64,000 bases of DNA, from positions 10,839 through 74,838 of IMG/VR virus record IMGVR_UViG_3300015214_000004; one strand, given 5' to 3'. A model generated the notes under the pieces. The model did no database searches. It was not told where the DNA came from and saw only the letters and a program-made list of their open reading frames with translations. The DNA comes from a virus (lineage: Duplodnaviria; Caudoviricetes). The translations under genes were made by a program, and so were the position numbers. This document shows positions 24,715 to 62,372 of this stretch, piece after piece; positions within the stretch are counted from its first letter, which is position 1; each line of letters opens with the position of its first letter.

Positions 24715-25491
24715 ATGAAAGACGAGATAGAATATATAAGGTTATCGAGAGAAGAACTGGAAAAAATAAAACTTGTTCCTGGAAACAATAAGGTATTGCT
24801 GAAAAAACTTACCAATAATCAAAACCAAAGGACAAAAAGCGGTATATGGATAGCGCCAAAACCATTGATACAAAATGTTATTGACCATATAGACAGGGTA
24901 TTCGAAGTTGTACAGGCTCCTGTTAAATTAAGATATGAACCAGCACATATGAGGGGATGGGTAGATAAATGGCACAAATATTTCTGGACGCCTCCTTGGA
25001 AAGCACAGATAGAAATACAAAAGGGTGACATAGTAATTTCTGCTAAAATACAGATACCAAAAAGCGTTCATGTAAAATGTGAAGATGAAATATATTTATT
25101 TCTGGACTACCATGAACTTTATTTGGCATTTAGGCCGGGAGACGGTGAAAAGGAAATAATGGGAAGGAGCATAAAAGAGATAATACCTTTAAATGGATTT
25201 GTAGTTTGTAAAACGATAAAAGATTGTTTACATTCTAAAGTAATATGGTTGCCAAAAAATCCCAATGATAAAATAAAAAGAGGCGAAGTGGTGCTTGTTG
25301 GAAAACCAAACTTAGTATATTCAAATAAGTCAGATACAGATGAAGGGTTTGAGAATTTAAAACCAGGAATGATTATTATGAAAAAAAGCACGCTTGTGCA
25401 CCGGGACTTGGAAAATGTAATGCACGCTGTATTTGATGGCGACAATGAACACTTTGTAATTCAACGGAAAGATATAATACATGCTGAATAA
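24715..25491 (+). CDS. Tandem GroES-like co-chaperonin
   Basis: Two GroES-like starts (KLVPGNNKVLLK; IIPLNGFVVCK), RGEVVLVGKP and VIQRKDII; start ATG at 24715. Confidence 0.6.
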   Translation: MKDEIEYIRLSREELEKIKLVPGNNKVLLKKLTNNQNQRTKSGIWIAPKPLIQNVIDHIDRVFEVVQAPVKLRYEPAHMRGWVDKWHKYFWTPPWKAQIEIQKGDIVISAKIQIPKSVHVKCEDEIYLFLDYHELYLAFRPGDGEKEIMGRSIKEIIPLNGFVVCKTIKDCLHSKVIWLPKNPNDKIKRGEVVLVGKPNLVYSNKSDTDEGFENLKPGMIIMKKSTLVHRDLENVMHAVFDGDNEHFVIQRKDIIHAE

Positions 25492-48000: not shown

Positions 48001-51000
48001 AGATGGCAGATACCAGATGTTGCCATTAAAAGAAACTGCGCAACCAGGTGTTGAGGCAGCAACGAAGCCGTCTACTGAAAAAGAGGCGGTTTCTGAACCT
48101 TTAAAAACAGAACAAAATGAACCAACAATTAAGCCCACAGAAACTAAAGAAGCTAAAAAGCCTGAACCAAAAGAAGTAACATTTGAGTTTATAGGTGAGC
48201 CAAGAAAAGGTATTATTACGGAACAAGGTGATGGGTTTGTAAAAGTAAAAGATAGCCGGGGAATAAACCATACCATAAAAGAAGGAGATACAAAGTATCG
48301 AAATGTAAAAATGGAAGGGATGGAATTTAAAGAGACGGTTTCTGCTGCTCAAATATTAGATAAAGAAATAGCAAAGACACGTAAAGAAAAACTAACAGAA
48401 AAAGAACAGGAGGTAAAAAATAGACTGGCAGAAAGGTTACAAAAACTTAGCGGAGCTAAATTTATAACCATCGAAGAAAAGTCAAATAATCTGAAAGAAA
48501 TATATGGTGTTATAAATGACCTTGCTGAATTAGGGCTTATTAAAATTGAAAAAGGAATTGATCATGTAATGTCTGAACTAAAAAAATATTTTCCAGATAA
48601 AGATATAGATAAATATAAAACAGACATTGAAGAAAATATATTTGGGAAACAAGAAAAACCAAAAGCAGAAAATTATGATAATGTATTAAAATCTATTGAA
48701 GAAAGAAAAATTGCCGAAAAATCTTTTAGGGAAAAAACAAGGAAAAAAATAAAATCACAATTTAATAAATTGGTGGTTGATAAGTCAGAGAATTTTAGGC
48801 AGAAAATATTGTCAATTGATAAAGAAGAAGGCCAGAGGGCTGTCAACTATTTTAATTTACAGGCAGGGTCATCAAGCAAATCAAAAATGGATTTTGACAA
48901 GGCAAGGCGTAAAATATTTGGAGGAGTTGGGAAAATAATGGACATAAGGGAACAGGAGTTATTGGGAGAATACATAGACAAAAAAAGGATTGTAGAATTA
49001 GATAATCTGTATGACAAAAGAAAACAGGAAAGGTTAAAACATGAAGGTGGTGTTACTGGTGAAGAAGCTCAATTGTTTTTAGATGCTATAAAAAATAAAG
49101 ACCAAAAATTATTAGACAAGTTTAATTTATCAGATGTAGATGCCAAGAAATTAGAAAATGCCGCAAACGAATATTATGATGTGATGCGGAATAATTTAAA
49201 ACGGTTATATGATGAAGGGATTATTTCTGAACAGTCTTATAATAAATTAGCAGAAGAACAACCATTCTATTCAAAGCGAATGTACATAGACCATATAAAC
49301 AGCATAGATGGCAACGGTAAATTAAGTGGTATAGAATCATTAAAAGAGGGAAGTGAATCAAGTAAGGTTGTTGATGTACAGACATTATTGGGCGACAATA
49401 TAACAAGGACAGACCGGATCATATTTGCCAATAGGGCTAAAAAAGCATTGAACGATGTTGCAGTAAAATTCCCTGAAAATGGATATATAGCAGAAGCGGA
49501 ATATTCTAATGAATATTTTAACAAACTGGCAAAGGAACTTGAAAAGCCTGAAAAAGACAGGCAGTTTATAGAACCGTCCTTTAAAGAAGCTCCAAAAGGT
49601 TTTACTATTGTCGAATTTATGGACAATGGCAAAAAGAAAGGTTTCTATTTAGAAAATGAACTGTATAAAGAATATGAATTTAATCCTGACCCTGAATGGC
49701 TTGATTTAACAAAAAACATTATAGGGTGGGCAAGTGGAACAAAATTATTGAAAGCAGGGGCTACTGGGTACAATCCTGAATTCGCCATTAAGAATGTTCC
49801 ATTAGATATGTTGCACATAATGACATCTACCGAGGAGTATTCATCTACATATGCTATTGCCACACCACAGATGTTAAACGATATGCGAAAAGTGTTTAAA
49901 GATGCCTCAACGAGGTCAGGCCGGTTTATTGATTATATGGAGCAAGGTGGTGGAATGGATTATCTTACAACGCAAGGAAGTTTGTCACCAAGAAAATATA
50001 AAAAATATAATAATCTGAACAACGGACTTAAAGCATTGTCGGATGTGGCTTCATATATGGGAAATACCAGTGAGATATTGACACGTTTGGCATTAAGGGA
50101 AAGATATATTGACAATAGGTTAAACGCACTTAAAAAGGAAGGTATTACCCCTACAAAAGAAAATATAAAAGAAATAGAATTTGCGGCAACAGCTTATGCG
50201 AGAAATTATTTAGATTTTGCACAAGGGGGGAAAGCTATAAAACTTATGGATGCCGGGATACCATATCTAAATGCTGGAATACAGGTTACAAGAGGGACTT
50301 TACGGGCGGCGGCGAGAAATAAGAAAGCATTTTGGTACAAGTTTGGTCAATTAGGATTGACCGCAGCAGCAATAACAGCGTATAATATGGGGGTATTTAG
50401 TAGAGGTGACGATGAAGAAAAAAACGAACGTGCCGAATATTATAAAAATGAGATATCTGACAGGAACAAAGCCAATAACTTCATTATAATGACTGGTCTC
50501 AATTATATAGATAAACAAGGAAACAAAAGGTATTTATATATCAAAATACCAAAAGACCAGACACAACAATTAGTGACAGGGCTGTTTGAAGATTTATATT
50601 TAAAATATGTACATGGAGACTCAGAACACCAAATATTAAACGACAGAAGGTTTATGGAGCTGAAAGCATTGACAAAGAATGTTGGTGATGTAGCTGGTAT
50701 GCCTCCAATGATTACTGCTATTACAGGATATAAAAACAATGTGAATTTATTTTATCAAGAAGCAATATGGTATGGAGACGAACTTGGAAAAGACAAGTCA
50801 GAAGAATATTACATAGGAAGAACCCCTGAAAGGTTTATTGAATGGGGAAAATTAACAGGAATGTCACCGGAAAGAACAAGATATGCGACACAACAGTTTA
50901 TTACAGGGTCAAACATGTTTGGGACTATATTGGGTGAAGGTCTTGATTATATGGTTGCCGATTTGGATAAAGAAATAAAAACAGAATTAAATAAAACAAC

Positions 51001-51481
51001 ATCGGAGAAAGTAAAGAATATGCCGTTTGCCAGGAGGTTTATAGGGGAAACAAGCCCTTATTCAAGAGAATCATCAGCAAAAACAGCGCAACAAGAAATA
51101 AACAGAGAGCAGACAAAGAATGACCATGAACTTGATAGAATATTATTAAGTGATTCAAAACCAGATGATATAGTTGATTTTATTGTAAAACAAGAACCTT
51201 ATGAAGCTAAAAGGCTTGTTGATAGATATTTTGACAAGTTAAAATTAGAAGGGGTCAACAAACAGGTAAAAGATTTAATGTTTTATCCCCCGGAAGCAAG
51301 AGCAAAAGGTTTTTATGATATGATAAAAAATAAACCAGACAAAGAAGTGCAAAAGATAATGTCTGATGCTGTAAGGATAGGCGGTATAATAACAGAAGGA
51401 AGATTTATGGAAGAACTTATTAAGTTAAGTTTAGAGGACGGGAAGAAGATACAAGAAATCAAAGCAATAAAAAACAAATAA
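45041..51481 (+). CDS. Large polyvalent cargo protein (GNAT-like and LPD38-like regions)
   Basis: 2146 aa; WIEIDPDKRDHGNGK (GNAT R/Q-x-x-G-x-G-like); ATGYNPEF...N, DF..GG, IPYLNA.IQ of LPD38-like C-termini. Confidence 0.6.
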   Translation: MPNNQIYNFLKENGLTEKSETDFINEYSNPNKANELYLFFKENNLTQKNSDEFYNEYLKKKEDGFRTVAEKGATQKELEKNIGAEFEKPIEILEAESNILTAKNKDLNFVKRATEPDKYPSLQTEDGKEKTHKLEWGDDGVGNYYVYPTIIQDKKTGELKELNSKDAFNYAMESGEYIKTDSPQTAEYYKNNGLLNREQLPEQSDTSEGFRTIHEKINAPNVNDKIEATDIPEYITTIKNKYKEYESGEFQKKAEKGEIDKPPKIEGDIKIMDDKQIPLSAEVFDYEDKSKQKPGSSLEYILEKGYNQSMIGLADAIHNKNYRINPEYLEKYDANTLENTLATAFGFILDAPFFWMGGKAGSTAAKPIVNKIVNNGTQKLVNSGIERKVAEQIAKKSMAKLTGAINSMASSGVALGSYGFTMGAMEQWADPENDFKDIEWSQALARGGKDFLLGTSVGLIGSQFANLGKAAQRIESPITRKTIQTALVPTAITAENTVFIYGGALLDGRKLSDVTAKEFLEGELLLGVLKAKEPIKFAKDFKRSLKYENEKAGKGIYEIDLTQSELNDLKYKNYDEAITDLSKNDAKLTEVFKDKDIPAITKAKLLWGSRGIKWEKNFYADYTYAEGNEVKTFNKEGVLLDKEAFTSKEEANSIAMERQSMIENSKKLQQAASLTESDKAKVINNISVEAEPLNDALRKSPQQRTAEERKMVSDFNKEVDKIIVDAQKKGLYEPIPELRLSDETLYTLNKIEDKEPVINQRIKDAANELFREYQRIGKLKEIPGRKNTIEQLNESRAFLEKEITRLDNMVKEQENTRKFVKDDMNETFNKQEKPKEIKKDEIKFEEKTEVKGVEKPVDIIRKPDAKTETLKEELVQFGDEMPAKKSMVNFLKSDPENTFTTPIVKNGEKIGDITIDKKDKTWDVKWIEIDPDKRDHGNGKDTYRKMNELAQKEGKVLQSDTKPKLNTETAGYVWESLVKSKEAIKTEDGRYQMLPLKETAQPGVEAATKPSTEKEAVSEPLKTEQNEPTIKPTETKEAKKPEPKEVTFEFIGEPRKGIITEQGDGFVKVKDSRGINHTIKEGDTKYRNVKMEGMEFKETVSAAQILDKEIAKTRKEKLTEKEQEVKNRLAERLQKLSGAKFITIEEKSNNLKEIYGVINDLAELGLIKIEKGIDHVMSELKKYFPDKDIDKYKTDIEENIFGKQEKPKAENYDNVLKSIEERKIAEKSFREKTRKKIKSQFNKLVVDKSENFRQKILSIDKEEGQRAVNYFNLQAGSSSKSKMDFDKARRKIFGGVGKIMDIREQELLGEYIDKKRIVELDNLYDKRKQERLKHEGGVTGEEAQLFLDAIKNKDQKLLDKFNLSDVDAKKLENAANEYYDVMRNNLKRLYDEGIISEQSYNKLAEEQPFYSKRMYIDHINSIDGNGKLSGIESLKEGSESSKVVDVQTLLGDNITRTDRIIFANRAKKALNDVAVKFPENGYIAEAEYSNEYFNKLAKELEKPEKDRQFIEPSFKEAPKGFTIVEFMDNGKKKGFYLENELYKEYEFNPDPEWLDLTKNIIGWASGTKLLKAGATGYNPEFAIKNVPLDMLHIMTSTEEYSSTYAIATPQMLNDMRKVFKDASTRSGRFIDYMEQGGGMDYLTTQGSLSPRKYKKYNNLNNGLKALSDVASYMGNTSEILTRLALRERYIDNRLNALKKEGITPTKENIKEIEFAATAYARNYLDFAQGGKAIKLMDAGIPYLNAGIQVTRGTLRAAARNKKAFWYKFGQLGLTAAAITAYNMGVFSRGDDEEKNERAEYYKNEISDRNKANNFIIMTGLNYIDKQGNKRYLYIKIPKDQTQQLVTGLFEDLYLKYVHGDSEHQILNDRRFMELKALTKNVGDVAGMPPMITAITGYKNNVNLFYQEAIWYGDELGKDKSEEYYIGRTPERFIEWGKLTGMSPERTRYATQQFITGSNMFGTILGEGLDYMVADLDKEIKTELNKTTSEKVKNMPFARRFIGETSPYSRESSAKTAQQEINREQTKNDHELDRILLSDSKPDDIVDFIVKQEPYEAKRLVDRYFDKLKLEGVNKQVKDLMFYPPEARAKGFYDMIKNKPDKEVQKIMSDAVRIGGIITEGRFMEELIKLSLEDGKKIQEIKAIKNK

Positions 51482-51513: not shown

Positions 51514-51990
51514 ATGAAAAAGATAGCGTTTTTAATAGGTTTTATGGTCACAATGATGTCCTTTGGGCAGTTTTCAGCGCCAAGGTTACATTATTATAAA
51601 GAAATAATAATTGACAGCGTATCCGGCACAGACAGTATATATGTTTACGAAGACGACAATGAAAGGACGCCTTTTAAAATAAAAAGCGGCTATGTCGGTA
51701 TCATTGTAGAATATTATTCAGTAGATGACAATGATGCAACATTTGATATAGGCGTATCAAATGGATATTCATTTAATTCTATTGACACGGCAAAACTTCC
51801 ATTATTGTTAGATTTACAAAATGACAGCGCAAGCGTAAATGGTGTTTTAAAAGGAAATACAGCAGGGGTAACAGCAACAAAAACATGGAAATCAGATTAT
51901 CCTGTACCGTATGAAAATTTAGCCTTTAAACTGATATTGAACAGCGTGTCTTCTGGAACAGTAAAACTTTGGATATATGGTTATGAATAA
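51514..51990 (+). CDS. Signal-peptide-bearing small beta protein (fibre/tail accessory position)
   Basis: MKKIAFLIGFMVTMMSFG-Q signal peptide; 4 D[ST][AILVMT] sequons. Confidence 0.65.
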   Translation: MKKIAFLIGFMVTMMSFGQFSAPRLHYYKEIIIDSVSGTDSIYVYEDDNERTPFKIKSGYVGIIVEYYSVDDNDATFDIGVSNGYSFNSIDTAKLPLLLDLQNDSASVNGVLKGNTAGVTATKTWKSDYPVPYENLAFKLILNSVSSGTVKLWIYGYE

Positions 51991-54900
51991 GATCAAATCA
52001 TTAATAATATTATTGTTTACGTCATGTATCTTGGTTAATTCTCAGGTACAAGACGTTTATAAGAATTATTCATATGACAATTACACGTATTGGATAGGAA
52101 GGAGTTCGAGTAAGTTGGCAGAATTTGAACCAAACATGGTACAATTGGCCAATTATTATTGTATTTACCTTATAGCGAATTATAATTCGGACACAGCAAC
52201 AGCAGATAGTGCAAGGGCTATAATAAATGCTATATGGAACTCTAATTATTCAAGCACGGAAATACCATCATTTCCTAATTTTAATACGTTGTATCAAAAT
52301 GTATTAGATTCCATATCAAATAGCGCTGTGGATAGTTTAGTAACGACTGGATTGGCATCAGCAGACACATTACAATATTATTATTTGATAACAGTGGTAA
52401 ATGACAGTCTTTCTGCAATAAGGGGTGATTTAGTCGGTGTTGTTACAGCCATGAACGATTATGTTTTAACATCGGTATTTACATCTACGCTTACAGACAG
52501 TATGGCCGATATTAGGTCAGAATTATTATCAATAACAAATTCATTAAGCAATTACGTAACAAATACTGTTTTATCTGATAGTTTAGCTTATTATGATGCA
52601 AAAGCACAAGCGTATGTTGATGATACCTTGCCGTCATATACACTATTGTCGGTATTTTTGGACAGTGTTGGTGATTTAAGAGGGGATATATCCTTGTTTG
52701 TACCATCAACCGAATTGACAGATACATTAGCTTATTATTGGACAGGGGTGCGAACAAACGACAGTATAAACGCAAAGATAGCCAGGGACGGGGGGGGAAA
52801 CATTGATGATACATTGTCTTATTATTATTTAGGGGAAAGGGTTGATGACAGTATAGCGGCAGCAATAGCAGCGCTGACATATTTGGATTATACCGGGACA
52901 CCGGCGCAATATTATATTCCTTTTATGTCAGATTTAAATACGATACAAACAAATTCACAATTCAGGTTTACTGGAAATACAAGATTAGTAGATGCGATAT
53001 ATTTAGGGACAAGTGACCCTAACAATTCAACAAGGATAAACTGGAACTACCATGTTTATGCATATGAGATAAATTCTATAAATGGCCTAAATGTATATTA
53101 TCCATTAGGCGCATCTGGAAGCCCGATAGAAATAACAACCCCGTCTTTAACAGCGACACAAAACGACCCGTATATAAGCATATCAAGGGTTCAAAACTAT
53201 GGCAGTAGAAGTTTATTGGGAGATATAATATATGTTGATGATAGCCCTATAACAGTCGGAACAAAGGGGGGGGCAATATTAAGGACGCTGGTAGATGAAA
53301 ATCTCCGTACATTAATTGACCCAAGAGGATATTATGGTGTATCATTTCACCAATGGGGCACATCTATTGATATAGGGACTGATGACCACACGGTATGGGT
53401 AAACCTCAATGATACTATTATGAGGCTTGACACAACCGGATTATATGTTGACAATTTATTTGTTGACGGGACAGATATTGTAGATTTTATTGTAGAACAA
53501 TCGGCAGTTGACAGTACATGGGACATAATAACAATCAATGAAGGGATATTGTTAAATTCAGGTGACACATTAAAAGACATGTACCATTTGAATGACAGTG
53601 TAATGGCTGTTTTAAATAGCGATACAGTATGTGTTTCAGGGTGCAATTCCTTGTTTATGATTTCTTCGTCCGGGGATACCTTAAAAGGAGTGGACTGTAT
53701 TGATGTAAACTGTGATTCGGCTTATGTGCTTATCAATAACAGGACATTAAAAATAACAACAGTCACCCCCGGATATTTACCAACAGGTAATGAAAGTGCC
53801 TTTGACGGATGGGACAAGGATGCGTCAAACGACTTTGATGGGGACTATAATTCACTGACAAACCAGCCGAATTTTGAAGATTCGGTTTTGCTATATGAAG
53901 ATGATTCTACATTTTTAAAAAGCGTAGCCTATTTAATTGATGCGGCAGATACAACGGCATGGAATGCAGAGATTGGAAGTATTTCAGAAGTAGTTGAAGA
54001 TTTAACACCGACATTGGGGGGGGATTTGACAATTGATGGGTATGATTTTGTTGGAAATGCACAGATAACAGGTAATTTAACCGTACAAGGGAATACCTAT
54101 TTAAACACATCATCTACTGACAGTACAACAATATATGGAAAACTTACAATTATAGATGGTATAAACCGGTTGATAGCAGGTAGCGGGGGGATAACATTTT
54201 CAAATGGTAACACATTGGTATCGGTATATCCGTTGAATGATTCTGTAATGGCCGTTGTAGGGACAGATACAATATGTATATCAGGATGTATTGGGTTAAC
54301 GGAAGAAAGCGACCCGGTTTATGCAGCCGATTCTGCCAATTTGGTTGATAGAAATGAACTTACAGACACGGCCACGGCAATTAGGTCAGATATCCCAGAC
54401 ATATCCTCATTAGCTACACAAAGCGCATTGGAAGATACTGCGGCTGCAATAAGGGCGGATATTGGAACTGGAAGTGGGACGGGAGAGACAGATTCAATAG
54501 GTGTAGTTTTGGATGTTGACCTGACAGCAGGGACAACAACGAGCATAAACACGAATCAAAGCGATGCTGTGCCAAAAGTTGTTTCAATCCAAGATACGTC
54601 AAACAACGAACTGGCAGATGATTTATTTGTAGTAGGGTACACGTTGAACACTACATGGTATATCAATATTTATAGTTCAACTGCTTATGACAGCCTTACT
54701 GTTTATTATTTAAAAAATGACCTTGATTATTTAGGTGGAAGTTCGACAACAACCTATGATACAGTAGGGATAAATGATTCGTTAAGGATTGGTGCTACAT
54801 GGTTTACAAGTGATGATATTGGTTCTGGTGGCGGTTCAGGCAATATAACAAGCGCAGTTACACAAAATTTATCTACACAAATAAATAATGGGATATTGCA

Positions 54901-55678
54901 TGTTCGAGGTGATAGTTTATCCACAACCGACAGTTTAAAATGGGAAGATGGTGGATTAAATATAACAGGTAATATATCAATATCAAACGATGCGTTGATA
55001 GGAGACCAAATAAAATATGATAATTTACCATTTCCAAAATTATATTTTACAGATTTTGGTAATGAAGATACTATAATTACATTTGATTTCCGATCAGCAA
55101 AAGCATGGTTATTAAAACATGGAGATAAATTTACCATTGCCTCAGATGAAAGCCATATATCACCAACATTATATAATGTATTATGTCAATTTTGGCACAG
55201 GCCTGATGGATTATTTGATTTTCAACTATATAATCCAAATAAAACAGGAGTGGCTATTAGGTCAAGTGCAGATGATTCGACTATATATTTAAATGCAATT
55301 AATGGAATTGATTTAACTGGACAAGTAACTATTAATAGTTATCTAACAGTTGATGGAAATACAACATTTAACGGAGACAGTAATATTTATTCAGGATATA
55401 TCAGAACCGATTCTGTGATAACACTAACTCAAACTTACGCTGACTACGTATTCCAAGAAGGATATAACACCTCTACATTTGAACAAGACTTAAACTATGC
55501 TTTAGAAAACAAAACCCTTCCCGCCTTACAGGTTAAGAATGGAAACATGGGAAGAAGGATAGAAAGCACGGTAGAACAACTTGAAAGGCTATATCTTCAA
55601 ATGGCAAAAGAACTTGAAAAGCGGGATGAAGAAATAGAACTTTTAAAACAGGAAATTGAACTTTTAAAAAACAGATAA
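51983..55678 (+). CDS. Signal-peptide-bearing fibre protein with a C-terminal chaperone-like (S74-like) coiled-coil domain
   Basis: MNKIKSLIILLFTSCILVNS-Q; internal repeats; ADYVF...Y...LP...VEQLERLYLQM tail. Confidence 0.65.
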   Translation: MNKIKSLIILLFTSCILVNSQVQDVYKNYSYDNYTYWIGRSSSKLAEFEPNMVQLANYYCIYLIANYNSDTATADSARAIINAIWNSNYSSTEIPSFPNFNTLYQNVLDSISNSAVDSLVTTGLASADTLQYYYLITVVNDSLSAIRGDLVGVVTAMNDYVLTSVFTSTLTDSMADIRSELLSITNSLSNYVTNTVLSDSLAYYDAKAQAYVDDTLPSYTLLSVFLDSVGDLRGDISLFVPSTELTDTLAYYWTGVRTNDSINAKIARDGGGNIDDTLSYYYLGERVDDSIAAAIAALTYLDYTGTPAQYYIPFMSDLNTIQTNSQFRFTGNTRLVDAIYLGTSDPNNSTRINWNYHVYAYEINSINGLNVYYPLGASGSPIEITTPSLTATQNDPYISISRVQNYGSRSLLGDIIYVDDSPITVGTKGGAILRTLVDENLRTLIDPRGYYGVSFHQWGTSIDIGTDDHTVWVNLNDTIMRLDTTGLYVDNLFVDGTDIVDFIVEQSAVDSTWDIITINEGILLNSGDTLKDMYHLNDSVMAVLNSDTVCVSGCNSLFMISSSGDTLKGVDCIDVNCDSAYVLINNRTLKITTVTPGYLPTGNESAFDGWDKDASNDFDGDYNSLTNQPNFEDSVLLYEDDSTFLKSVAYLIDAADTTAWNAEIGSISEVVEDLTPTLGGDLTIDGYDFVGNAQITGNLTVQGNTYLNTSSTDSTTIYGKLTIIDGINRLIAGSGGITFSNGNTLVSVYPLNDSVMAVVGTDTICISGCIGLTEESDPVYAADSANLVDRNELTDTATAIRSDIPDISSLATQSALEDTAAAIRADIGTGSGTGETDSIGVVLDVDLTAGTTTSINTNQSDAVPKVVSIQDTSNNELADDLFVVGYTLNTTWYINIYSSTAYDSLTVYYLKNDLDYLGGSSTTTYDTVGINDSLRIGATWFTSDDIGSGGGSGNITSAVTQNLSTQINNGILHVRGDSLSTTDSLKWEDGGLNITGNISISNDALIGDQIKYDNLPFPKLYFTDFGNEDTIITFDFRSAKAWLLKHGDKFTIASDESHISPTLYNVLCQFWHRPDGLFDFQLYNPNKTGVAIRSSADDSTIYLNAINGIDLTGQVTINSYLTVDGNTTFNGDSNIYSGYIRTDSVITLTQTYADYVFQEGYNTSTFEQDLNYALENKTLPALQVKNGNMGRRIESTVEQLERLYLQMAKELEKRDEEIELLKQEIELLKNR

Positions 55679-57639
55679 TGAAAAACATCATAACCATATT
55701 ATTGCTATTAATAAGCAGTTTTGTTTTTTCACAGGACAGGTCACAGGGATGGAAGCCGGAGGAAAAGAAGTTTTATTTTAAAGACAGCTTAAAAATTGAC
55801 GGATATATCATATTCAAGGACGGAGATACAGCTACAATTGTTAAAGTAAATGATTCAATTTGTGTTGTTATTAATGGCGACACTGTCAGGATAGATGGAA
55901 GCGGCAGCATAGATAATGAAACCGACCCTATTTTTACATCAACCGGTGCAACCCAAAGCGCTTTAGAAGACACGGCAAGCGCATTGAGAAGCGCAATAGT
56001 GACAGGCGGTGGCATTGAATCAGACCCCGTGTTCACCGCAAGTGATGCGTTTAACATAACATCAACAGATATAACAAATCTGGGATACCTTTCAGGGACA
56101 AACACCGGTGACCAGGATACGGCATTTATATATGCAAGGATGGATTCTATTATTTATGTATTAAACGACACAATATCAGCAGACAGTATACTTGTATTGA
56201 AAAGAGATACTTTGCAAAATGGTTTAATATGGACGCAAAGACAGATTGATAGTGCGATTACTGCAAATGCAATAACACAGGAGCTAATTGAAGACTATGT
56301 AGGGGCAATGGTGAGTGGCAATACAGAAACAAACATCACCGTTACATATCAAGATGCAGATGGCACATTGGATTTTGTTGCAGAGGCATCAGGGGGAAGT
56401 GGCGGGGCAAGTTCTGATACAGTATTTACAGCATCAAATGACACCGTGACAGCCCCACGTGCAATTAACAGATATCCATTTTATCAAACTAAACAATCAG
56501 TTGATTCGATGTTCATCGATACAACAGGAATGAACAAAAATGCTGTGATAAAACTATCTGTTGTTGACACTACCGGGACTGATTCAATAGTGTTTTACTC
56601 TCAAATACCAATCCGGTTTAAAAACAGCACAGATACTTTTAATAATACGCAAAATGTGTATCATGATTATTGGTTCAACCTCACAGGAACCGGAGCAAGG
56701 TGGAAATGGTTAGGGGAACTAATGGACACCATGTACATAGCAAGTGCCGGTGATGTGACAGCTCCTACATTTGTTAGTGCCGAAATTGGCACATATAATG
56801 ATAGTATTGTTGTTGTCATATTTAGTGAAAACCTACACCAAGATTCGATTCCTTCGAAAGATCAGTTTGGTGTGTCAGAAGGAGGAACAACAATGGGGAT
56901 AGCTGAAATTACTATAAATGCAGATACTTTGTTTATCGCATTGGACAGTGTAGGACATAATGGGCTTACATATACAATGAGTTATACACATACAATTGGT
57001 GATACAGCAATACAGGATAGTTCTTATAATCAAGTCGCTAATTTTGCTGATTCTGCAATCACAAATAATATTTCAAGTGGAAGCATTACATGGCTTTATG
57101 AAGATAATTTTGATTCGTATACAGATGGTGCTTTGGTTGGTCAAGGCAATTGGATTTCAGGTACATTAGGAGCGATAGTTGCTGGTGACCCCGACAACTA
57201 TGTGTATGGGAACACTGGTCTTACGCTGTCATGTGTGATATATAATCAATCATTAAACAATGATCAAAGGGCAGGCATCACAGTTCAATCAATGTCATCA
57301 ACCGGGTTTGTTGGAGCGGGTGTTAGAATAACTGGTTCTGGTGCTACATTAGACGGATATGGTTTCTTTGGCAACAACTCATTGTCACGTATATTTAGAA
57401 TTGATGATGGTGTAAGGACAAATATATCACAAGGAGCAGCATTTTCACCAGGTGATGTTTTGTGGTTGGAAGCAGAAGGAACAACAATTACCCTTTACAG
57501 AAATGGAGTAGTTGACGCAACTCATGATAACAACGGGTTCACAGATGCAAATTATAGTTCAGGACAAGCAGGATTGATGTTGTATGATTCACAACAAACA
57601 TCTAACTGTGATGATTGGAGAGCTGGTAATATTGAATAG
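55678..57639 (+). CDS. Signal-peptide-bearing fibre protein with a C-terminal beta-sandwich (lectin-like) domain
   Basis: MKNIITILLLLISSFVFS-Q; ETDP/ESDP repeats; beta-rich C-terminus. Confidence 0.65.
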   Translation: MKNIITILLLLISSFVFSQDRSQGWKPEEKKFYFKDSLKIDGYIIFKDGDTATIVKVNDSICVVINGDTVRIDGSGSIDNETDPIFTSTGATQSALEDTASALRSAIVTGGGIESDPVFTASDAFNITSTDITNLGYLSGTNTGDQDTAFIYARMDSIIYVLNDTISADSILVLKRDTLQNGLIWTQRQIDSAITANAITQELIEDYVGAMVSGNTETNITVTYQDADGTLDFVAEASGGSGGASSDTVFTASNDTVTAPRAINRYPFYQTKQSVDSMFIDTTGMNKNAVIKLSVVDTTGTDSIVFYSQIPIRFKNSTDTFNNTQNVYHDYWFNLTGTGARWKWLGELMDTMYIASAGDVTAPTFVSAEIGTYNDSIVVVIFSENLHQDSIPSKDQFGVSEGGTTMGIAEITINADTLFIALDSVGHNGLTYTMSYTHTIGDTAIQDSSYNQVANFADSAITNNISSGSITWLYEDNFDSYTDGALVGQGNWISGTLGAIVAGDPDNYVYGNTGLTLSCVIYNQSLNNDQRAGITVQSMSSTGFVGAGVRITGSGATLDGYGFFGNNSLSRIFRIDDGVRTNISQGAAFSPGDVLWLEAEGTTITLYRNGVVDATHDNNGFTDANYSSGQAGLMLYDSQQTSNCDDWRAGNIE

Positions 57640-57640
57640 T

Positions 57641-60430
57641 ATGAGAAAATTAATTACATATATAGTATTGTTAATTGGCTGTGCACTATATTCACAGCCT
57701 ATTGTCGTAGACCATCGTCATATAAAGTACTATGACGATATACCCCAGCAATACATAGATTCAATTAAAAAAAGATGGCTGAGTTATGCAGGGGAATCTC
57801 ATTCGCTTGGTTTACGGGTAGGTTTAGCTGCTTTGGAAGATTCAAATTCTGTTTACCAGGTCAATGTGAGAGAATCAGGCACACCCGAAACAGCCACATC
57901 TAATTATTTACGTGTTTCAAGGGCAACCTGGGGTGACCATGACAACAGCACCGGATGGATTTATTATTATGGGGAAGAAGATTGGTGGACAAACAGTGTT
58001 GCGGTTACAAGAACGAAATCAAGCATTGCATATTGTAATGACAATGGTTACCAATTAGATTATTTCGCATTTGGATGGTGTTGGGACCAGAGCGGTACCA
58101 ATGATGTTGGCGGAAGTTATGACCCTGTGTATTATACAAGATGGGCAGGTAGGAGCGTTGATGGACCTGACGGGAACCAACGATGGGGGCTTGACAGTGG
58201 GGACAGTATATTGACTGATAACCGGGTAAACATGAATACTTATTTGTCAGTGACAAGGGAATATATAGAATATTGTGAATCGAACGGATATCCAACAAAA
58301 GTATTTTTCACAACTGGTCCTGTTGACAACACAGCAGACCCTTTATTGGGTTATGCAACCGGGGAACGTGGATATCAGGGATATTTGAAATGGGAACATA
58401 TAAGGAATTATGTGGACACAACGGATTTTGCATTGTTTGATTTTGCGGACATACTCTCATATAACAATGCAGGTGTTCAGAACACAACCACATGGACAGA
58501 CAACAATGGCACATTGCAGACATTTCCGATTATTGCAGTTGAGAATAGAAATGACTTGTCTGATTACCATTATAGTTTGCAAGGAGCCGTGAAGCTGGCA
58601 AAAGGAATGTGGGTATTCCTTGCCATGATGGAAGGATGGGACACTACGTCAACGGAAAGCACAAGCGACACTACAAAATGGTATATGTCAAATACGGGTG
58701 ACAATAGTTATTCAGGGCATCATCCTGATTCAGCGATAAGGACAATTGCAGAATTGATTACCCGTGACATTGAGCCGGGAGATTCTATATTGTTTGAGGC
58801 TGGTGGGGTTTGGAGGGAGACATTACAAATATTATGGTCAGGCACACAAGGAAATCAAATAACTTTTTCAAGTTATGGAACAGGTAATAAACCAAAATTA
58901 TTAGGTTCAAACGTTGCTACTGACTGGACTGCACAAGGAACGGCGAATATATGGCAGACTGCTACATCACTTTCAAACAGGTCAACAGAATATTATCCGG
59001 GACGGTTGTGGTTCATTGAAAATGATTCAGTGATATGGGGTAGATATAGGGCATGGGGTACTGGTGATTTTAGCAATTTAACACAGGAATATGATTACAC
59101 AGTCAATGGTACTACACATTATGTCTATGCACCAACTGATCCTGACACAAGATATGATTCAATAGAGGTTAATCAACGTCAAAGATGTATAGCTGTGCCG
59201 GATGGTAGTTCAGAAAGTTATTTAACATTTGACGGACTTGAAATAAAATTTGCCCGTTTAGCTGGCTTTGATGCAGGATACCCTGCTTATAGGGGTGCTA
59301 CTGATTTATGTTTCAGAAATTGTGAAATTGGTTATATAGGGGCCACTCCTTCAAATTTTGCCTATGGAATAGCTGCCTGGCACAGTAATTTCCTTGCTGA
59401 GAACAATCTAATCACTGATTGTGGTAGAAGGGGGATTTCAATTAACCTTTATCTTGAAAGGGTTCCCGGGAGCCAACGGAACATCCAAAATATAATTGTC
59501 AGGGACAATATTTTCAAAAGGGGGTATCACACAACCGGTCTTGATTTTAGTAATCAGGCAACCGGAAATGACACACTTGAACACATTTATTTTTACAATA
59601 ATATCGTAGATGATTCAGAATTTAATTCTATCTGTACAAATTGTTATTCAAACCAGGTATTTTTCCAGAAAGGTGATAGCGTGAGTGTAATGAATGATAT
59701 TTATGTGATTGGAAACCTGTTTATTCATGCCTCTGCAAGGAATATTCTTTGTGAAGGCATAGACACAATTTATATTTCAAACAATACGATAATAGGGCAC
59801 AATCCAAATATTGCAGAGAATCCTTATAATAACGTTGGATTTAATTCTAATCAGGCAAATGTGTACTACAGGAACAATATTCTTTATGATAATCTTCCAA
59901 ATAACACAATGCAAAACCATGGTGTTTTCATTTATGATGCTTACACGGGTGTGTTTGAAGCAAAAGATTATAATTTATATTATTCTCTGTTCCCTGGTGC
60001 TGCATCTGATAACAGAAACTTCTCTGCTCATAGGGTTAACAGCAGTGGCGGTATGGGCTATTGGAACACAAATGAATGGAGTTCATATGTATCTACTAAT
60101 ACAGCATTTGAGCAAAATTCACCTTCACCGATAAATCCGTATTTTGTCAATTATAGCAATCATGATTATCATATAACTGACAGTTCAGCAGCTGACAGTG
60201 CAGGGGTTGTTCTTGATTATATAATTGTAACAGACTTATTTGGTGTTGTAGACACAATAAATAAATATGATCTTGATGGATTAGAGATTTCAAGGACTTA
60301 CCCGCCCATCGGAGCATATGCAACGGCAGGAAATGTAGATGGAGAAGAACCTACAGTGCCAGCAACTACGAAAAAAGTCAGGTATGGAAATATGTATATC
60401 AGATATAATGGTAAATTTATAGTTTATTAA
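57641..60430 (+). CDS. Signal-peptide-bearing tailspike-like protein with a right-handed beta-helix
   Basis: MRKLITYIVLLIGCALYS-Q; GDSILFEAG..WRE and Asn-ladder NN.I repeats of pectin-lyase-like beta-helices. Confidence 0.65.
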   Translation: MRKLITYIVLLIGCALYSQPIVVDHRHIKYYDDIPQQYIDSIKKRWLSYAGESHSLGLRVGLAALEDSNSVYQVNVRESGTPETATSNYLRVSRATWGDHDNSTGWIYYYGEEDWWTNSVAVTRTKSSIAYCNDNGYQLDYFAFGWCWDQSGTNDVGGSYDPVYYTRWAGRSVDGPDGNQRWGLDSGDSILTDNRVNMNTYLSVTREYIEYCESNGYPTKVFFTTGPVDNTADPLLGYATGERGYQGYLKWEHIRNYVDTTDFALFDFADILSYNNAGVQNTTTWTDNNGTLQTFPIIAVENRNDLSDYHYSLQGAVKLAKGMWVFLAMMEGWDTTSTESTSDTTKWYMSNTGDNSYSGHHPDSAIRTIAELITRDIEPGDSILFEAGGVWRETLQILWSGTQGNQITFSSYGTGNKPKLLGSNVATDWTAQGTANIWQTATSLSNRSTEYYPGRLWFIENDSVIWGRYRAWGTGDFSNLTQEYDYTVNGTTHYVYAPTDPDTRYDSIEVNQRQRCIAVPDGSSESYLTFDGLEIKFARLAGFDAGYPAYRGATDLCFRNCEIGYIGATPSNFAYGIAAWHSNFLAENNLITDCGRRGISINLYLERVPGSQRNIQNIIVRDNIFKRGYHTTGLDFSNQATGNDTLEHIYFYNNIVDDSEFNSICTNCYSNQVFFQKGDSVSVMNDIYVIGNLFIHASARNILCEGIDTIYISNNTIIGHNPNIAENPYNNVGFNSNQANVYYRNNILYDNLPNNTMQNHGVFIYDAYTGVFEAKDYNLYYSLFPGAASDNRNFSAHRVNSSGGMGYWNTNEWSSYVSTNTAFEQNSPSPINPYFVNYSNHDYHITDSSAADSAGVVLDYIIVTDLFGVVDTINKYDLDGLEISRTYPPIGAYATAGNVDGEEPTVPATTKKVRYGNMYIRYNGKFIVY

Positions 60431-60451: not shown

Positions 60452-60757
60452 ATGAACACTGGCCATTGGATAACAATAGGAATGTTTGGGGTAACACAGT
60501 TAACAGCATTAATAATAACATATATCAATGTCCGGTTAAAGATAAAAGAACTTGAAATTAAAATAGAAAACATGAAACAGTCTATTCTTGATAAAGAAGA
60601 TTCTTTAAATGAAAAGATAAAGACAAATCAACATTCATTTCATATACATGAACAACAAAATGAACGGATGTTCGACAAGTATGAGAAAAAACTTGATGAT
60701 GTATACGATGTTGTAAGCGAGGTAAAGAATATTTTGATCAACAAAAATTTTAGTTAA
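60452..60757 (+). CDS. Single-TM coiled-coil protein (holin- or spanin-like)
   Basis: N-terminal TM segment then a coiled coil; directly before the endolysin. Confidence 0.5.
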   Translation: MNTGHWITIGMFGVTQLTALIITYINVRLKIKELEIKIENMKQSILDKEDSLNEKIKTNQHSFHIHEQQNERMFDKYEKKLDDVYDVVSEVKNILINKNFS

Positions 60758-61215
60758 TGAGGCCAATAAACAAAATAATAATCCACTGTGCAGCTACGCC
60801 GGAAGGAATGAACGTAGACGCTAAACTTATTGATAAGTGGCATAAAAAAAGAGGGTTTAAAAAGATAGGCTATCACTATTTTATCAAACTTGACGGGACA
60901 ATTGAAAGGGGCCGGCCGATTGAAGAAATGGGGTCGCATTGTTCAGGCCATAATTATGATTCGATAGGAATATGCTATGCCGGAGGGCTTGACAAAAACA
61001 AACAACCAAAAGATACGAGGACATCACAGCAAAAACAATCTTTTGAATATTGGATAAAAGCCCTTGTAGATACATATCCGTCAATCAAAGAAATCAAAGG
61101 GCACAGGGATTATTCTCCTGATAGAAACAAAGACGGCGAGATAAGCCCGGATGAATGGATTAAGGTTTGTCCATGTTTTGATGCTGAAAAAGAATATAAA
61201 CATTTATTGTCATGA
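60757..61215 (+). CDS. Endolysin, N-acetylmuramoyl-L-alanine amidase (Amidase_2, T7 lysozyme-like)
   Basis: IIIHCAAT, IGYHYFI, GICYAGG, GHRD, K.CPCFD zinc-binding motifs. Confidence 0.95.
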   Translation: MRPINKIIIHCAATPEGMNVDAKLIDKWHKKRGFKKIGYHYFIKLDGTIERGRPIEEMGSHCSGHNYDSIGICYAGGLDKNKQPKDTRTSQQKQSFEYWIKALVDTYPSIKEIKGHRDYSPDRNKDGEISPDEWIKVCPCFDAEKEYKHLLS

Positions 61216-61610
61216 GATCATTTATAATATTCATATTATTTACAGTCCAGATCGTCTTTCAAGCAAGATGGGAAGCTGAATTATTGTCACCGGGAACCAG
61301 TAACCATATATATCAAATTGTTCAATTATCATCAATAATATTGTTATTGATAGTTGTGGCAAAGTTTGAACACAACTGGAAACAGATAATGTATATTGGT
61401 ATTGGGTATCCATTGTTACGGTTCTGTTTGTTTGACTATATGATTAATTTCTTCCGTGGATTAAGTTGGAATTACGTTTCATCCGAAGAAAAAATAAAAG
61501 CATATTTAGGTGACAGTATCGCAGTATTAAAGATATCCGCTATGGCAATAGTTGTATATTGTATAATTGCATTTATTATTGAAGAAGAAAATAAAATGAA
61601 AAGAATATGA
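61212..61610 (+). CDS. Membrane protein
   Basis: About 4 hydrophobic segments. Confidence 0.55.
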   Translation: MRSFIIFILFTVQIVFQARWEAELLSPGTSNHIYQIVQLSSIILLLIVVAKFEHNWKQIMYIGIGYPLLRFCLFDYMINFFRGLSWNYVSSEEKIKAYLGDSIAVLKISAMAIVVYCIIAFIIEEENKMKRI

Positions 61611-62140
61611 AAACAAAAAAATATTTAATCGGTAGCCTTGTCCTGACAATCTTCTACCTAATATTGTGTTATGCGCAGTTCGGTATGGCTCCATCAATAA
61701 GCCATTATGCTATTGATTGGAGAGATACAAGCATGCAATATATGCCATTTGTATGGGTAACATCAATACTTGTTATGATAGGGGTATATTGTTTTGATGC
61801 AGGAAAATATGGGTGGATGTTGTTTACATCCATTTTGGTGTTGACGGGTATCGGGTATTTTACCGGATACAACCCTGAATTTATGAACAACAAAGTAGAG
61901 AATTTTATCCATGTTGCTTGTGTGTACATTTCAATACCTCTTGCATTGACATATATTATAATAAGTTCAAAGAGTAAAGGTTTATCTATATTGTTAACAA
62001 TTACATTTTTAATATTTACGGTTCTAATGTTAACATTTGAAGTAAAAAACCATACTACATACATTGAAGAATATTGCTTTGCGGTAATATATTTTTATTT
62101 GATATACCGGGATGATTTGAATATTATTAAAAGTGAATGA
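61607..62140 (+). CDS. Multi-pass membrane protein
   Basis: About 6 hydrophobic segments. Confidence 0.6.
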   Translation: MKTKKYLIGSLVLTIFYLILCYAQFGMAPSISHYAIDWRDTSMQYMPFVWVTSILVMIGVYCFDAGKYGWMLFTSILVLTGIGYFTGYNPEFMNNKVENFIHVACVYISIPLALTYIIISSKSKGLSILLTITFLIFTVLMLTFEVKNHTTYIEEYCFAVIYFYLIYRDDLNIIKSE

Positions 62141-62372
62141 CATGAAAGAATTTTGGATGTATACGGCTATTTTCTTTGCAGGGTCAACAGCAATATTGAC
62201 ATTAATAGTATTTGCACAGATGAAAAGGATGGGGAATGAGATAACAATAAGAAAGCAAGTACAAAGGAACAGAAGGTCTCCAAACAATAACCAGGAATAC
62301 CAGGCATCACAGGAAAATCAAAATAAAAAGAAAAGAAAATTGTTTAATTTAAAACGTAAAAAAAATGAATGA
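62133..62372 (+). CDS. Single-TM protein with a basic tail
   Basis: One TM segment and a Lys/Arg-rich C-terminus. Confidence 0.5.
   Translation: MNDMKEFWMYTAIFFAGSTAILTLIVFAQMKRMGNEITIRKQVQRNRRSPNNNQEYQASQENQNKKKRKLFNLKRKKNE

What the first reader, a model, noticed from the sequence alone, without database searches (positions are those of the whole stretch)
51514..60430. Four consecutive fibre-position genes all begin with Sec signal peptides cleaved before Gln
Seen: MKKIAFLIGFMVTMMSFG/Q, MNKIKSLIILLFTSCILVNS/Q, MKNIITILLLLISSFVFS/Q and MRKLITYIVLLIGCALYS/Q; basic N-region, hydrophobic core, small residue at -1. Established: most Bacteroidota signal-peptidase-I substrates expose an N-terminal Gln that is cyclised (Q-rule), whereas ordinary tail fibres fold in the cytoplasm and lack signal peptides. 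Inference: these fibres or spikes are exported to the periplasm, mature there and join the virion only at or after lysis, or they decorate the infected cell surface. Either would be an unusual assembly route for a tailed phage.
Basis: partly seen in the sequence, partly recalled or inferred. Interest (0 to 1): 0.86.

Follow-up and report, generated by a model that had tools for sequence, protein, structure and literature searches.

The report
Phage tail fibres built for export
A complete crAss-like phage of Bacteroidota makes all four of its fibre- and spike-like host-recognition proteins with its host's secretion signal and packs them with the host's sugar-attachment motif, so they very probably mature outside the cytoplasm, which is not how tailed-phage fibres are known to be made.

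Summary
The window is the last 64 kb of a complete 74.8-kb crAss-like podophage genome with direct terminal repeats. Four translationally coupled genes (51514-60430) lie between a 2146-aa giant protein and the lysis cassette. All four start with a short Sec/SPase-I-type signal peptide followed by Gln at +1. No other large protein of the phage does.

Orthologs of all four in related phage contigs keep the leader. The hydrophobic core diverges, while the cleavage region and mature N-terminus are conserved.

The four proteins also carry 4 times the shuffle-expected number of the Bacteroidota O-glycosylation sequon (z 3.9-10). The 24 other phage proteins tested carry none in excess.

- P0003 is a fibre with an Ig-like domain and a lectin tip.
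- P0004 is an SGNH esterase plus beta-helix. It was taken from cellular T9SS-secreted enzymes but lacks their T9SS sorting domain.
- No other fibre candidate exists in the genome.

In the cultured relative Cellulophaga phage phi18:3, three consecutive leader-bearing Q+1 proteins in the same slot are annotated as MS/MS-detected structural proteins.

Export is well supported. Attachment to virions at or after holin action is inferred, not shown. This scan has noted the same pattern in at least eight other phage genomes. I found no paper describing it.

The parts
51514..51990 (+). P0001, 158 aa: signal peptide (cleavage SFG|Q after residue 18) plus a small beta-rich domain of unknown role. It directly follows the giant protein.
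   Evidence: Orthologs P0276/P0277 and L028 keep the leader and the Q+1 junction. 4 sequons against 0.8 expected. The nearest ESM-Atlas clusters are viral hypothetical proteins (a lead only).
51983..55678 (+). P0002, 1231 aa: signal peptide (VNS|Q) plus a long repetitive fibre-like protein. It holds two copies of the module that follows the leader in P0003 and ends in a coiled coil.
   Evidence: The L028 ortholog keeps the leader, and the L003 ortholog keeps the C-terminal coiled coil. 40 sequons against 10 expected, z 10.2. No Pfam, PHROG or PDB match.
55678..57639 (+). P0003, 653 aa: signal peptide (VFS|Q), fibre repeats (about 60-260), an Ig-like domain (about 345-470) and a C-terminal lectin-type beta-sandwich (473-651).
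   Evidence: weak Big_5/SWM_repeat; the repeats are shared with leaderless classical phage fibres and with leader-bearing Bacteroidota proteins; the AF2 C-terminal domain matches CBM66/galectin folds and a mycobacteriophage baseplate fibre. 24 sequons against 5 expected, z 9.2.
57641..60430 (+). P0004, 929 aa: signal peptide (LYS|Q), an SGNH/GDSL-fold carbohydrate esterase (about 20-340), a right-handed beta-helix (345-893), and a Pro-rich linker with a short C-terminal tail. It has no T9SS sorting domain.
   Evidence: about 50% identity to hundreds of cellular secreted proteins, aligned from residue 1, many with PF18962. AF2 pLDDT 82.7, Foldseek hits to PatB and acetyl-xylan esterases; the closest beta-helix relatives lie in bacterial chromosomes; no CTD. 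14 sequons against 3.6 expected, z 5.9.
60452..62372 (+). Lysis cassette directly downstream: a holin-like membrane protein (60452-60757), a leaderless Amidase_2 endolysin (60757-61215), and membrane or spanin-like proteins (61212-61610, 61607-62140, 62133-62372).
   Evidence: for the N-termini. Amidase_2 at E 1e-14. The holin and spanin roles are inferred from size, membrane segments and position.
45041..51481 (+). Giant 2146-aa late protein directly upstream (context). It is conserved next to the P0001-like gene in relatives.
   Evidence: no family. 61% identity to the L028 upstream gene. 27% identity to the giant protein of Maribacter phage Panino.
18330..22639 (+). Phage glycan-synthesis gene cluster (WsaF_C-like, GT2, two unknowns, NDP-sugar epimerase/dehydratase). 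A link to glycosylation of the exported proteins is possible but untested.
   Evidence: The link is inference only.

Best explanation
The four genes encode the phage's host-recognition set: a long fibre (P0002), a lectin-tipped fibre (P0003), a two-enzyme polysaccharide esterase/beta-helix spike (P0004) and a small accessory protein (P0001).

They are made late as Sec preproteins and exported to the periplasm of a Bacteroidota host. SPase I cleaves them before Gln. The host then probably cyclises the new N-terminus to pyroglutamate and O-glycosylates the many D-S/T-[AILVMT] sites through its general O-glycosylation system.

They have no T9SS or lipoprotein signal, so they stay in the periplasm. 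They would meet the cytoplasmically assembled, DNA-filled particles only when the holin opens the inner membrane, or after lysis, and attach to the tail then.

Shown: the leaders, their conservation, the sequon excess, the domain folds, the gene order and the absence of other fibre genes. Inferred: actual export and cleavage, glycosylation, and late attachment to virions.
For: 1. Leaders with n/h/c regions and Q+1 occur on all four genes and on no other large protein.
2. Orthologs of each keep the leader. The core sequence diverges while the junction and mature N-terminus stay conserved, which is the signature of a cleaved signal under selection.
3. P0004 aligns from residue 1 with cellular T9SS cargo, which must use Sec.
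4. Sequon D-[ST]-[AILVMT]: 82 observed against about 19 expected in the four proteins, and 82 of 94 D[ST]x tripeptides fit. The 24 other proteins hold 16 in about 11,800 aa, none in excess. The closest leader-bearing homologs of P0003 are equally dense. Leaderless fibres of PhicrAss001 and Panino are not. The review PMC12871550 states that this glycosylation occurs only on non-cytoplasmic proteins.
5. Fibre or spike nature: repeats shared with classical phage fibres, a lectin tip, and SGNH plus beta-helix.
6. The order 'fibres then lysis cassette' matches PhicrAss001 gp21-26/gp27-30, phi18:3 and contigs L004, L012 and L015.
7. I saw no other fibre candidate. Outside the window the 74.8-kb genome holds only replication-type genes, and the other window proteins searched gave no fibre match.
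8. phi18:3 gp085-087 are three consecutive leader-bearing Q+1 proteins. Their GenBank annotation reads 'structural protein ... experimental MS/MS proteomics'. The N-terminal modules of gp086 and gp087, leader included, recur in other PHROG families annotated as tail fibre or pectate lyase.
9. The endolysin has no leader, so lysis depends on holin lesions that would let the compartments mix.
Against: - No experiment exists on this phage, and SignalP was not run.
- No recognisable N-terminal tail-anchor domain was found in any of the four. In P0004 the esterase starts right after the leader, as in the cellular enzymes.
- The phi18:3 proteins share no detectable sequence similarity with these four and are not sequon-rich.
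- MS detection in a virion preparation does not exclude co-purifying secreted proteins. It also does not say whether the leader is removed.
- At least one related phage (L015) also carries a classical leaderless fibre, so in that phage the exported pair could be accessory.
- No precedent is known for post-lysis fibre attachment in tailed phages.
Confidence: 0.55

Rival explanations
1. The proteins are exported but are not virion parts. They are soluble or envelope-acting late proteins, such as a periplasmic or released depolymerase/esterase with lectin-like helpers. They could strip or mask the receptor polysaccharide of the dying cell and its neighbours, aid release through capsule or biofilm, or block superinfection. 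They would be freed at lysis.
For: - P0004 is a near-complete copy of cellular secreted enzymes, with the enzyme directly after the leader and no tail-anchor domain.
- The genes abut the lysis cassette.
- Relative L015 also has a classical leaderless fibre.
- Q-rule secreted proteins of unknown function are already reported in Porphyromonas gingivalis prophages (PMC10367356).
- Sec-exported phage lysis enzymes are known (own knowledge: fOg44 Lys44).
Against: - This phage would then have no fibre or receptor-binding candidate apart from the muzzle-like protein.
- P0002 and P0003 are non-enzymatic and built from phage-fibre repeats with a lectin tip.
- The phi18:3 counterparts are annotated as MS-detected in virions.
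- 9 kb, or 12% of the genome, is a large investment for accessory proteins.
Confidence: 0.3
2. The hydrophobic N-termini are not used for export. The fibres fold and join tails in the cytoplasm as usual. The segment is either an inherited relic of captured bacterial genes or a transient membrane tether.
For: Cytoplasmic assembly is the rule for all studied tailed phages. P0004 was clearly captured from a cellular secreted protein, leader included.
Against: - A relic would decay. Instead the leaders are kept in four unrelated proteins and in their diverged orthologs, with conserved junctions and Q+1.
- The sequon excess is confined to these proteins and is higher in phage P0004 (1.5 per 100 aa) than in its homologs, which are mostly cellular (0.44 per 100 aa), which implies selection for periplasmic glycosylation.
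- Functional Sec leaders are hard to keep in the cytoplasm.
Confidence: 0.08
3. The proteins are delivered to the infected cell's surface before lysis, as lipoproteins or via T9SS, where they act as adhesins or decoys.
For: - Cellular homologs of P0004 are T9SS cargo.
- P0002 and P0004 each have a Cys in the leader (FTSC, LIGC).
- A related phage contig (L012) encodes a 92-aa protein consisting of a leader plus a T9SS sorting domain.
Against: - None of the four has a PF18962 or other CTD hit.
- The Cys residues are absent from orthologs.
- P0001 and P0003 have no Cys in the leader.
Confidence: 0.05

Closest known systems
Cellulophaga phage phi18:3 (Pachyviridae) gp085-gp087
   Same: Three consecutive late genes sit directly upstream of the lysis cassette. 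Each has a Sec-type leader with Q at +1. The phage is a flavobacterial podophage whose TerL is the best database match (E 2e-35). The GenBank record marks the three proteins as structural by MS/MS.
   Different: There is no detectable sequence similarity to the four proteins here, and no sequon excess (1 each). I found no paper in the searchable library that mentions their leaders. The original proteomics paper could not be read.
PhicrAss001 tail fibre cluster gp21-gp26 (Crassvirales)
   Same: This is a crAss-like phage. A block of fibre, tailspike and lectin genes is followed at once by the lysis cassette. The enzymatic beta-helix and lectin content is similar.
   Different: None of gp21-26 has a leader or a sequon excess. 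They are assembled in the cytoplasm as far as is known.
Cellular T9SS-secreted SGNH and beta-helix enzymes of Bacteroidota (e.g. P0006, P0027, P0036)
   Same: 45-60% identity to the two halves of P0004, with the same leader-Q junction and mature N-terminus.
   Different: The cellular proteins carry a T9SS C-terminal sorting domain or other cell-surface modules and few sequons (0.44 per 100 aa). The phage protein fuses both enzymes, lacks the CTD and has 1.5 sequons per 100 aa.
Q-rule signal-peptide proteins of Porphyromonas gingivalis prophages (PMC10367356)
   Same: These are phage-encoded proteins predicted to be SPase I substrates with Gln at +1 in a Bacteroidota host.
   Different: They are small genes of unknown function in temperate phages, read as host-envelope modifiers. 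They are not fibre-like late proteins in the virion/lysis block.
Substrates of the general O-glycosylation system of Bacteroidota (PMC12871550, PMC8550257)
   Same: Sec leader plus D-S/T-[AILVMT] motifs in soluble regions.
   Different: The known substrates are cellular. No phage protein is reported as a substrate in the papers read.

Membership tests
Sec/SPase I substrates obeying the Bacteroidota Q-rule | N-terminal tripartite leader: basic n-region, hydrophobic core of about 10-15 residues, small residues at -3/-1 | tested here: met
   by inspection and a Kyte-Doolittle/charge heuristic. SignalP was not available.
Sec/SPase I substrates obeying the Bacteroidota Q-rule | Gln at +1 of the mature protein | tested here: met
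   4 of 4 here. 10 of 11 P0003-like homologs, both P0001 orthologs and the P0002 ortholog. The rule is described in PMC5837995 and PMC10653852.
Sec/SPase I substrates obeying the Bacteroidota Q-rule | Actual export, cleavage and pyroglutamate formation | not testable with these tools
   Needs N-terminal proteomics or reporter fusions.
Bacteroidota general O-glycosylation substrates | D-(S/T)-(A/I/L/V/M/T) sequons on a non-cytoplasmic protein | tested here: met
   82 sequons against about 19 expected, z 3.9-10.2. The other 24 phage proteins show no excess.
Bacteroidota general O-glycosylation substrates | Glycan attached | not testable with these tools
   Needs glycoproteomics.
Phage tail fibres / tailspikes | Fibre repeats, a receptor-binding or depolymerase domain, and a position in the late structural/lysis block | tested here: met
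   Gene order as in PhicrAss001 and phi18:3.
Phage tail fibres / tailspikes | N-terminal domain that docks to the tail | tested here: inconclusive
   No match to known anchors. The N-terminal 360 aa of P0003 is unmodelled. P0004 starts with the enzyme. A conserved Pro-rich linker plus short C-terminal tail in the phage enzymes is a candidate docking element only.
Phage tail fibres / tailspikes | Presence in purified virions | not testable with these tools
   Indirect only: the phi18:3 gp085-087 MS/MS annotation.
T9SS cargo | C-terminal sorting domain (PF18962 or type B) | tested here: not met
   No hit in any of the four, including their C-terminal pieces at E 0.1. Homologs have it.
Lipoproteins (SPase II) | Conserved lipobox Cys at +1 | tested here: not met
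   The Cys in the P0002 and P0004 leaders is not conserved in orthologs. There is none in P0001 or P0003.
SGNH/GDSL hydrolases (P0004 residues 20-340) | SGNH fold with a nucleophile Ser in block I and a His in block V | tested here: met
   Fold: Foldseek probability 1.0 to PatB, CJ0610C and acetyl-xylan esterases. Ser53/His54 and His310 are invariant in 18 sequences. Activity and substrate are untested.

The most novel reading that the evidence does not exclude
A tailed phage routes its whole host-recognition apparatus through the host's Sec pathway. The fibres and the depolymerase spike fold in the periplasm. The host caps them with pyroglutamate and coats them with O-glycan, possibly tailored by the phage's own glycosyltransferase cluster at 18330-22639. 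They are added to finished, fibreless particles only when the holin breaches the inner membrane. This would be a two-compartment assembly line for Caudoviricetes, and it would produce host-glycosylated virions.
Probability: 0.4. Interest if true: 0.9.

Novelty: new variant of a known kind. Interest (0 to 1): 0.78.

Why it matters
Tailed-phage morphogenesis is taught as a purely cytoplasmic process. Exported, host-glycosylated fibres would add a periplasmic branch and a lysis-coupled last assembly step. They would also mean that virions of abundant Bacteroidota phages, including crAss-like ones, wear host-type glycans, which bears on protease resistance, mucus or particle adhesion and immune recognition.

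There are practical consequences too:
- Gene callers can hide the leader, as happened with P0002.
- Fibres expressed in E. coli for receptor-binding or depolymerase studies may need the leader removed, or a Bacteroidota host.
- Leaders and sequons become a cheap host-phylum predictor for uncultured phages.

Cellulophaga phage phi18:3 is cultured, so the question can be tested directly.

Tried and rejected
- Megablast and tblastn of the region and of P0002, P0003 and P0004 against 50,697 phage records gave no match.
- IMG/VR pattern scans with the giant protein's C-terminus, with P0004 and with a P0003 alignment gave nothing useful.
- Pfam and PHROGs gave no family for the four proteins except weak Ig-like hits.
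- PDB sequence searches were negative.
- The near-length homolog search for P0002 found only itself. Orthologs appeared only on short contigs (L003, L028).
- Leaders are not a general trait of flavobacterial podophage fibres: Flavobacterium phage elemo and Maribacter phage Panino fibres have none.
- A lipoprotein reading for P0002 and P0004 was rejected because the Cys is not conserved.
- A T9SS route was rejected because there is no CTD.
- The sequon excess is not a by-product of fibre repeats. Leaderless fibres with the same repeats show a ratio of 0.47, against 0.78-0.87 here.
- Host identification via the TnpB element gave only 67-91% identical copies in MAGs of several phyla, with Flavobacterium and Chitinophagaceae first. 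This is consistent with Bacteroidota but not decisive.
- The Holmfeldt 2013 proteomics paper could not be read.
- The AF2 monomer model of P0003 is poor for residues 18-358.
Full report
**Where the window lies.** The window is bases 10839-74838 of a 74,838-bp virus record with direct terminal repeats, rated complete. It encodes a crAss-type large terminase (phrog_6681), a portal (phrog_6547) and a 1162-aa protein with a weak Crassvirus muzzle C-terminal hit. The nearest cultured relatives by TerL are flavobacterial podophages: Cellulophaga phi18:3, phi13:2, phi46:3 and phi19:3 (E about 1e-35, 26% identity) and the Flavobacterium 'elemo' phages. By portal the nearest is Maribacter phage Panino. 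G+C is about 34%. A Bacteroidota host, probably Flavobacteriales or Chitinophagales, fits three things: these relatives, the cellular homologs of P0004, and the TnpB copies found in MAGs.

**The observation.** Four same-strand genes fill 51514-60430, between a 2146-aa giant protein and the lysis cassette.
- The longest ORF of the fourth gene starts at 57584, but the leader-bearing Met is at 57641, 1 nt after the stop of the third gene.
- The third gene's ATG shares one base with the second gene's stop.
- The second gene's ATG overlaps the end of the first gene by 8 nt.
- The junctions are SFG|Q, VNS|Q, VFS|Q and LYS|Q. The hydrophobic cores are 12-14 residues long, so these are cleavable leaders and not membrane anchors.
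- A simple hydrophobicity/charge scan of about 75 ORFs flags only these four, two small membrane proteins of the lysis cassette, and one false positive on a Rossmann fold.
- The public gene call for the second protein starts at a TTG 132 nt further on (1187 aa) and so misses the leader.

**Conservation of the leaders.**
- P0001 has two orthologs at 62-64% identity. Their leaders differ in most core positions, but the FSQ/FGQ junction and the mature N-terminus are conserved.
- Contig L028 comes from a close relative (giant protein 61% identical). It carries the P0001 ortholog, an extra 83-aa lipoprotein, and a P0002 ortholog with a different core, no Cys, and the same VNS|QVQD junction.
- Among 150 representatives found with P0003, the 11 that share its Ig-like and C-terminal domains all start with a leader, 10 of them with Q at +1.
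- The contexts of those homologs repeat the local gene order. First comes a P0003-like protein with a leader, then a beta-helix enzyme with a leader, then holin-like, endolysin and spanin-like genes (L003, L004, L005, L011, L012 and the 68.5-kb contig L015).

**What the proteins are.**
- *P0004* has two modules.
  - Residues 1-340, leader included, align from residue 1 at about 50% identity with hundreds of cellular proteins, mostly from Bacteroidota. Many of these carry a T9SS sorting domain (PF18962), Big_2 or fn3 modules.
  - An AlphaFold model of this module (pLDDT 82.7) has the SGNH/GDSL esterase fold: peptidoglycan O-acetyltransferase PatB, CJ0610C and acetyl-xylan esterases. Ser53/His54 and His310 are invariant.
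  - Residues 345-893 are a beta-helix, 45-59% identical to proteins that sit in bacterial chromosomes.
  - The phage protein has neither a T9SS domain nor any other C-terminal sorting signal.
  - Related phages combine the same two modules in the opposite order (L012, L015).
  - Three of the four phage enzymes compared end in a Pro-rich linker and a short tail where the cellular proteins carry the sorting domain.
- *P0003* has several parts.
  - It has fibre repeats that also occur in classical leaderless phage tail fibres.
  - It has an Ig-like domain (weak Big_5/SWM_repeat).
  - It has a confident C-terminal beta-sandwich of the CBM66/galectin type, which also matches a mycobacteriophage baseplate fibre.
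- *P0002* contains two copies of the module that follows the leader in P0003. It ends in a coiled coil that is conserved in L003.
- *P0001* is a small beta-rich protein. Its nearest Atlas clusters are viral, which is a lead only.

**No other fibre genes.** The 10.8 kb outside the window holds replication-type genes only. The remaining structural proteins gave no fibre-like match.

**A second, independent mark of export.** Another first-stage note on this stretch pointed to the Bacteroidota O-glycosylation sequon. I tested it.
- D-[ST]-[AILVMT] occurs 4, 40, 24 and 14 times in the four proteins. Composition-preserving shuffles expect 0.8, 10.0, 5.0 and 3.6 (z 3.9, 10.2, 9.2, 5.9).
- 82 of the 94 D[ST]x tripeptides are followed by an allowed residue, where about 40% is expected.
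- The 24 other phage proteins (about 11,800 aa) hold 16 sequons, none in excess, and only 16 of 58 D[ST]x fit.
- The leader-bearing homologs of P0003 are equally dense (1.6-3.7 per 100 aa, 176 of 225 fitting).
- Leaderless fibres with the same repeats, the homologs of P0004 found (mostly cellular), and the fibres of PhicrAss001 and Panino are not enriched.
- This glycosylation takes place in the periplasm and only on non-cytoplasmic proteins. The glycan is built on undecaprenyl phosphate by cytoplasmic glycosyltransferases, and its outer part is species-specific (PMC12871550; motif in PMC8550257).
- The phage carries its own glycan-synthesis cluster: WsaF_C-like, GT2 and an NDP-sugar epimerase at 18330-22639. 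A link to the exported proteins is speculation.

**Are they virion parts?** Direct evidence is lacking. Three points favour it.
- First, PhicrAss001 keeps its fibre, spike and lectin genes gp21-26 directly upstream of its lysis genes gp27-30, the same order as here. Those proteins have no leaders.
In cultured Cellulophaga phage phi18:3, gp085, gp086 and gp087 lie directly upstream of the lysis genes. All three have leaders with Q at +1, and all three are annotated 'structural protein, annotation based on experimental MS/MS proteomics analysis'. The N-terminal 60-115 residues of gp086 and gp087, leader included, recur at the N-termini of other PHROG families named tail fibre or pectate lyase, as the conserved anchor modules of tailspikes do.
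- Third, this phage has no other receptor-binding candidate.

Several points count against it.
- The phi18:3 proteins are unrelated in sequence to the four here and are not sequon-rich.
- MS detection does not exclude co-purification.
- I found no anchor domain.
- One relative (L015) also has a classical leaderless fibre.

**Mechanism.** The endolysin (Amidase_2) has no leader, so lysis needs holin lesions. The most economical model has four steps.
1. Sec export late in infection.
2. SPase I cleavage before Gln.
3. Periplasmic folding with pyroglutamate capping and O-glycosylation. The Q-rule is known to stabilise extracytoplasmic proteins (PMC10653852).
4. Attachment to cytoplasmic particles once the holin removes the barrier.

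My estimates are about 0.85 for export, about 0.6 for virion association given export, and 0.55 for the whole model as stated. The main rival, at 0.3, is that these are exported, non-virion depolymerase and lectin proteins released at lysis.

**Comparison with what is known.**
- Phage proteins obeying the Q-rule have been noted once, as small genes of unknown function in Porphyromonas gingivalis prophages (PMC10367356).
- A study of phage DGR targets states that phage target proteins lack signal peptides, unlike bacterial surface proteins (PMC6199706).
- Searches for signal peptides on tail fibres of crAss-like, Bacteroidota or Cellulophaga phages found no paper that describes them.
- From my own knowledge, Sec leaders are known on some endolysins and on filamentous-phage coat proteins, and cytoplasmic virion glycosylation is known in mycobacteriophages. 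None of these is an exported tail fibre.
- This scan has already recorded the same combination (leader plus sequons on fibre-like late proteins) in at least eight other Bacteroidota phage genomes. The trait is therefore recurrent, not unique to this genome.

**Verdict.** I rate it a new variant of a known kind (tail fibres and spikes with a periplasmic maturation route), with interest 0.78.

Noticed in passing
window 23465-24691 (-): A TnpB-like gene (408 aa) sits antisense between two + strand late genes. Copies 67-91% identical occur in MAGs labelled Flavobacterium, Chitinophagaceae, Flavobacteriales, Saccharibacteria, Thermoclostridium and Planctomycetaceae. This looks like a recently mobile IS200/605-type element in a phage.
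   Followed up: partly
window 18330-22639: Five-gene glycan cluster: a WsaF_C-like GT, a GT2, two unknowns and an NDP-sugar epimerase/dehydratase. It might tailor the O-glycan put on the exported fibres, or modify host surface glycans. This was not tested.
   Followed up: partly
L012 7809-8087: A related phage contig encodes, within its lysis region, a 92-aa protein consisting only of a signal peptide and a T9SS C-terminal sorting domain (PF18962). It could interfere with, or borrow, the host's T9SS.
   Followed up: no
window 60300-60430; L004 4200-4325; L012 7350-7475: The phage SGNH/beta-helix enzymes end in a Pro/Glu-rich linker and a tail of about 20-25 residues rich in Gly, Lys and aromatic/aliphatic residues, where the cellular homologs carry the T9SS domain. 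This is a candidate docking peptide.
   Followed up: no
window 51983 vs 52115: The public protein record for the second gene is 1187 aa and starts at a TTG 132 nt downstream of the coupled ATG, which removes the signal peptide. Start-codon miscalls may hide such leaders in databases.
   Followed up: yes
L028 2667-2918: A close relative has an extra 83-aa lipoprotein gene (lipobox IISC) inserted between the P0001-like and P0002-like genes.
   Followed up: no
window 45041-51481: The 2146-aa giant protein has no Pfam or PHROG family. It is 27% identical over 800 aa to the giant protein of Maribacter phage Panino, which is annotated there as 'tRNA methyltransferase'. It occupies the slot of the crAss-like giant virion proteins.
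   Followed up: partly
window 2315-3985: A 556-aa protein matches phrog_850 'RNA-binding protein' and DUF7788/DUF2828. I read this as a possible Ro60/TROVE-like protein in a phage that another reader says also carries a tmRNA-like gene.
   Followed up: no
window 24691-25491: A 266-aa protein upstream of TerL has a Cpn10/GroES-like C-terminal part. A cpn10-like gene also sits just upstream of TerL in phi18:3, elemo and Panino.
   Followed up: no
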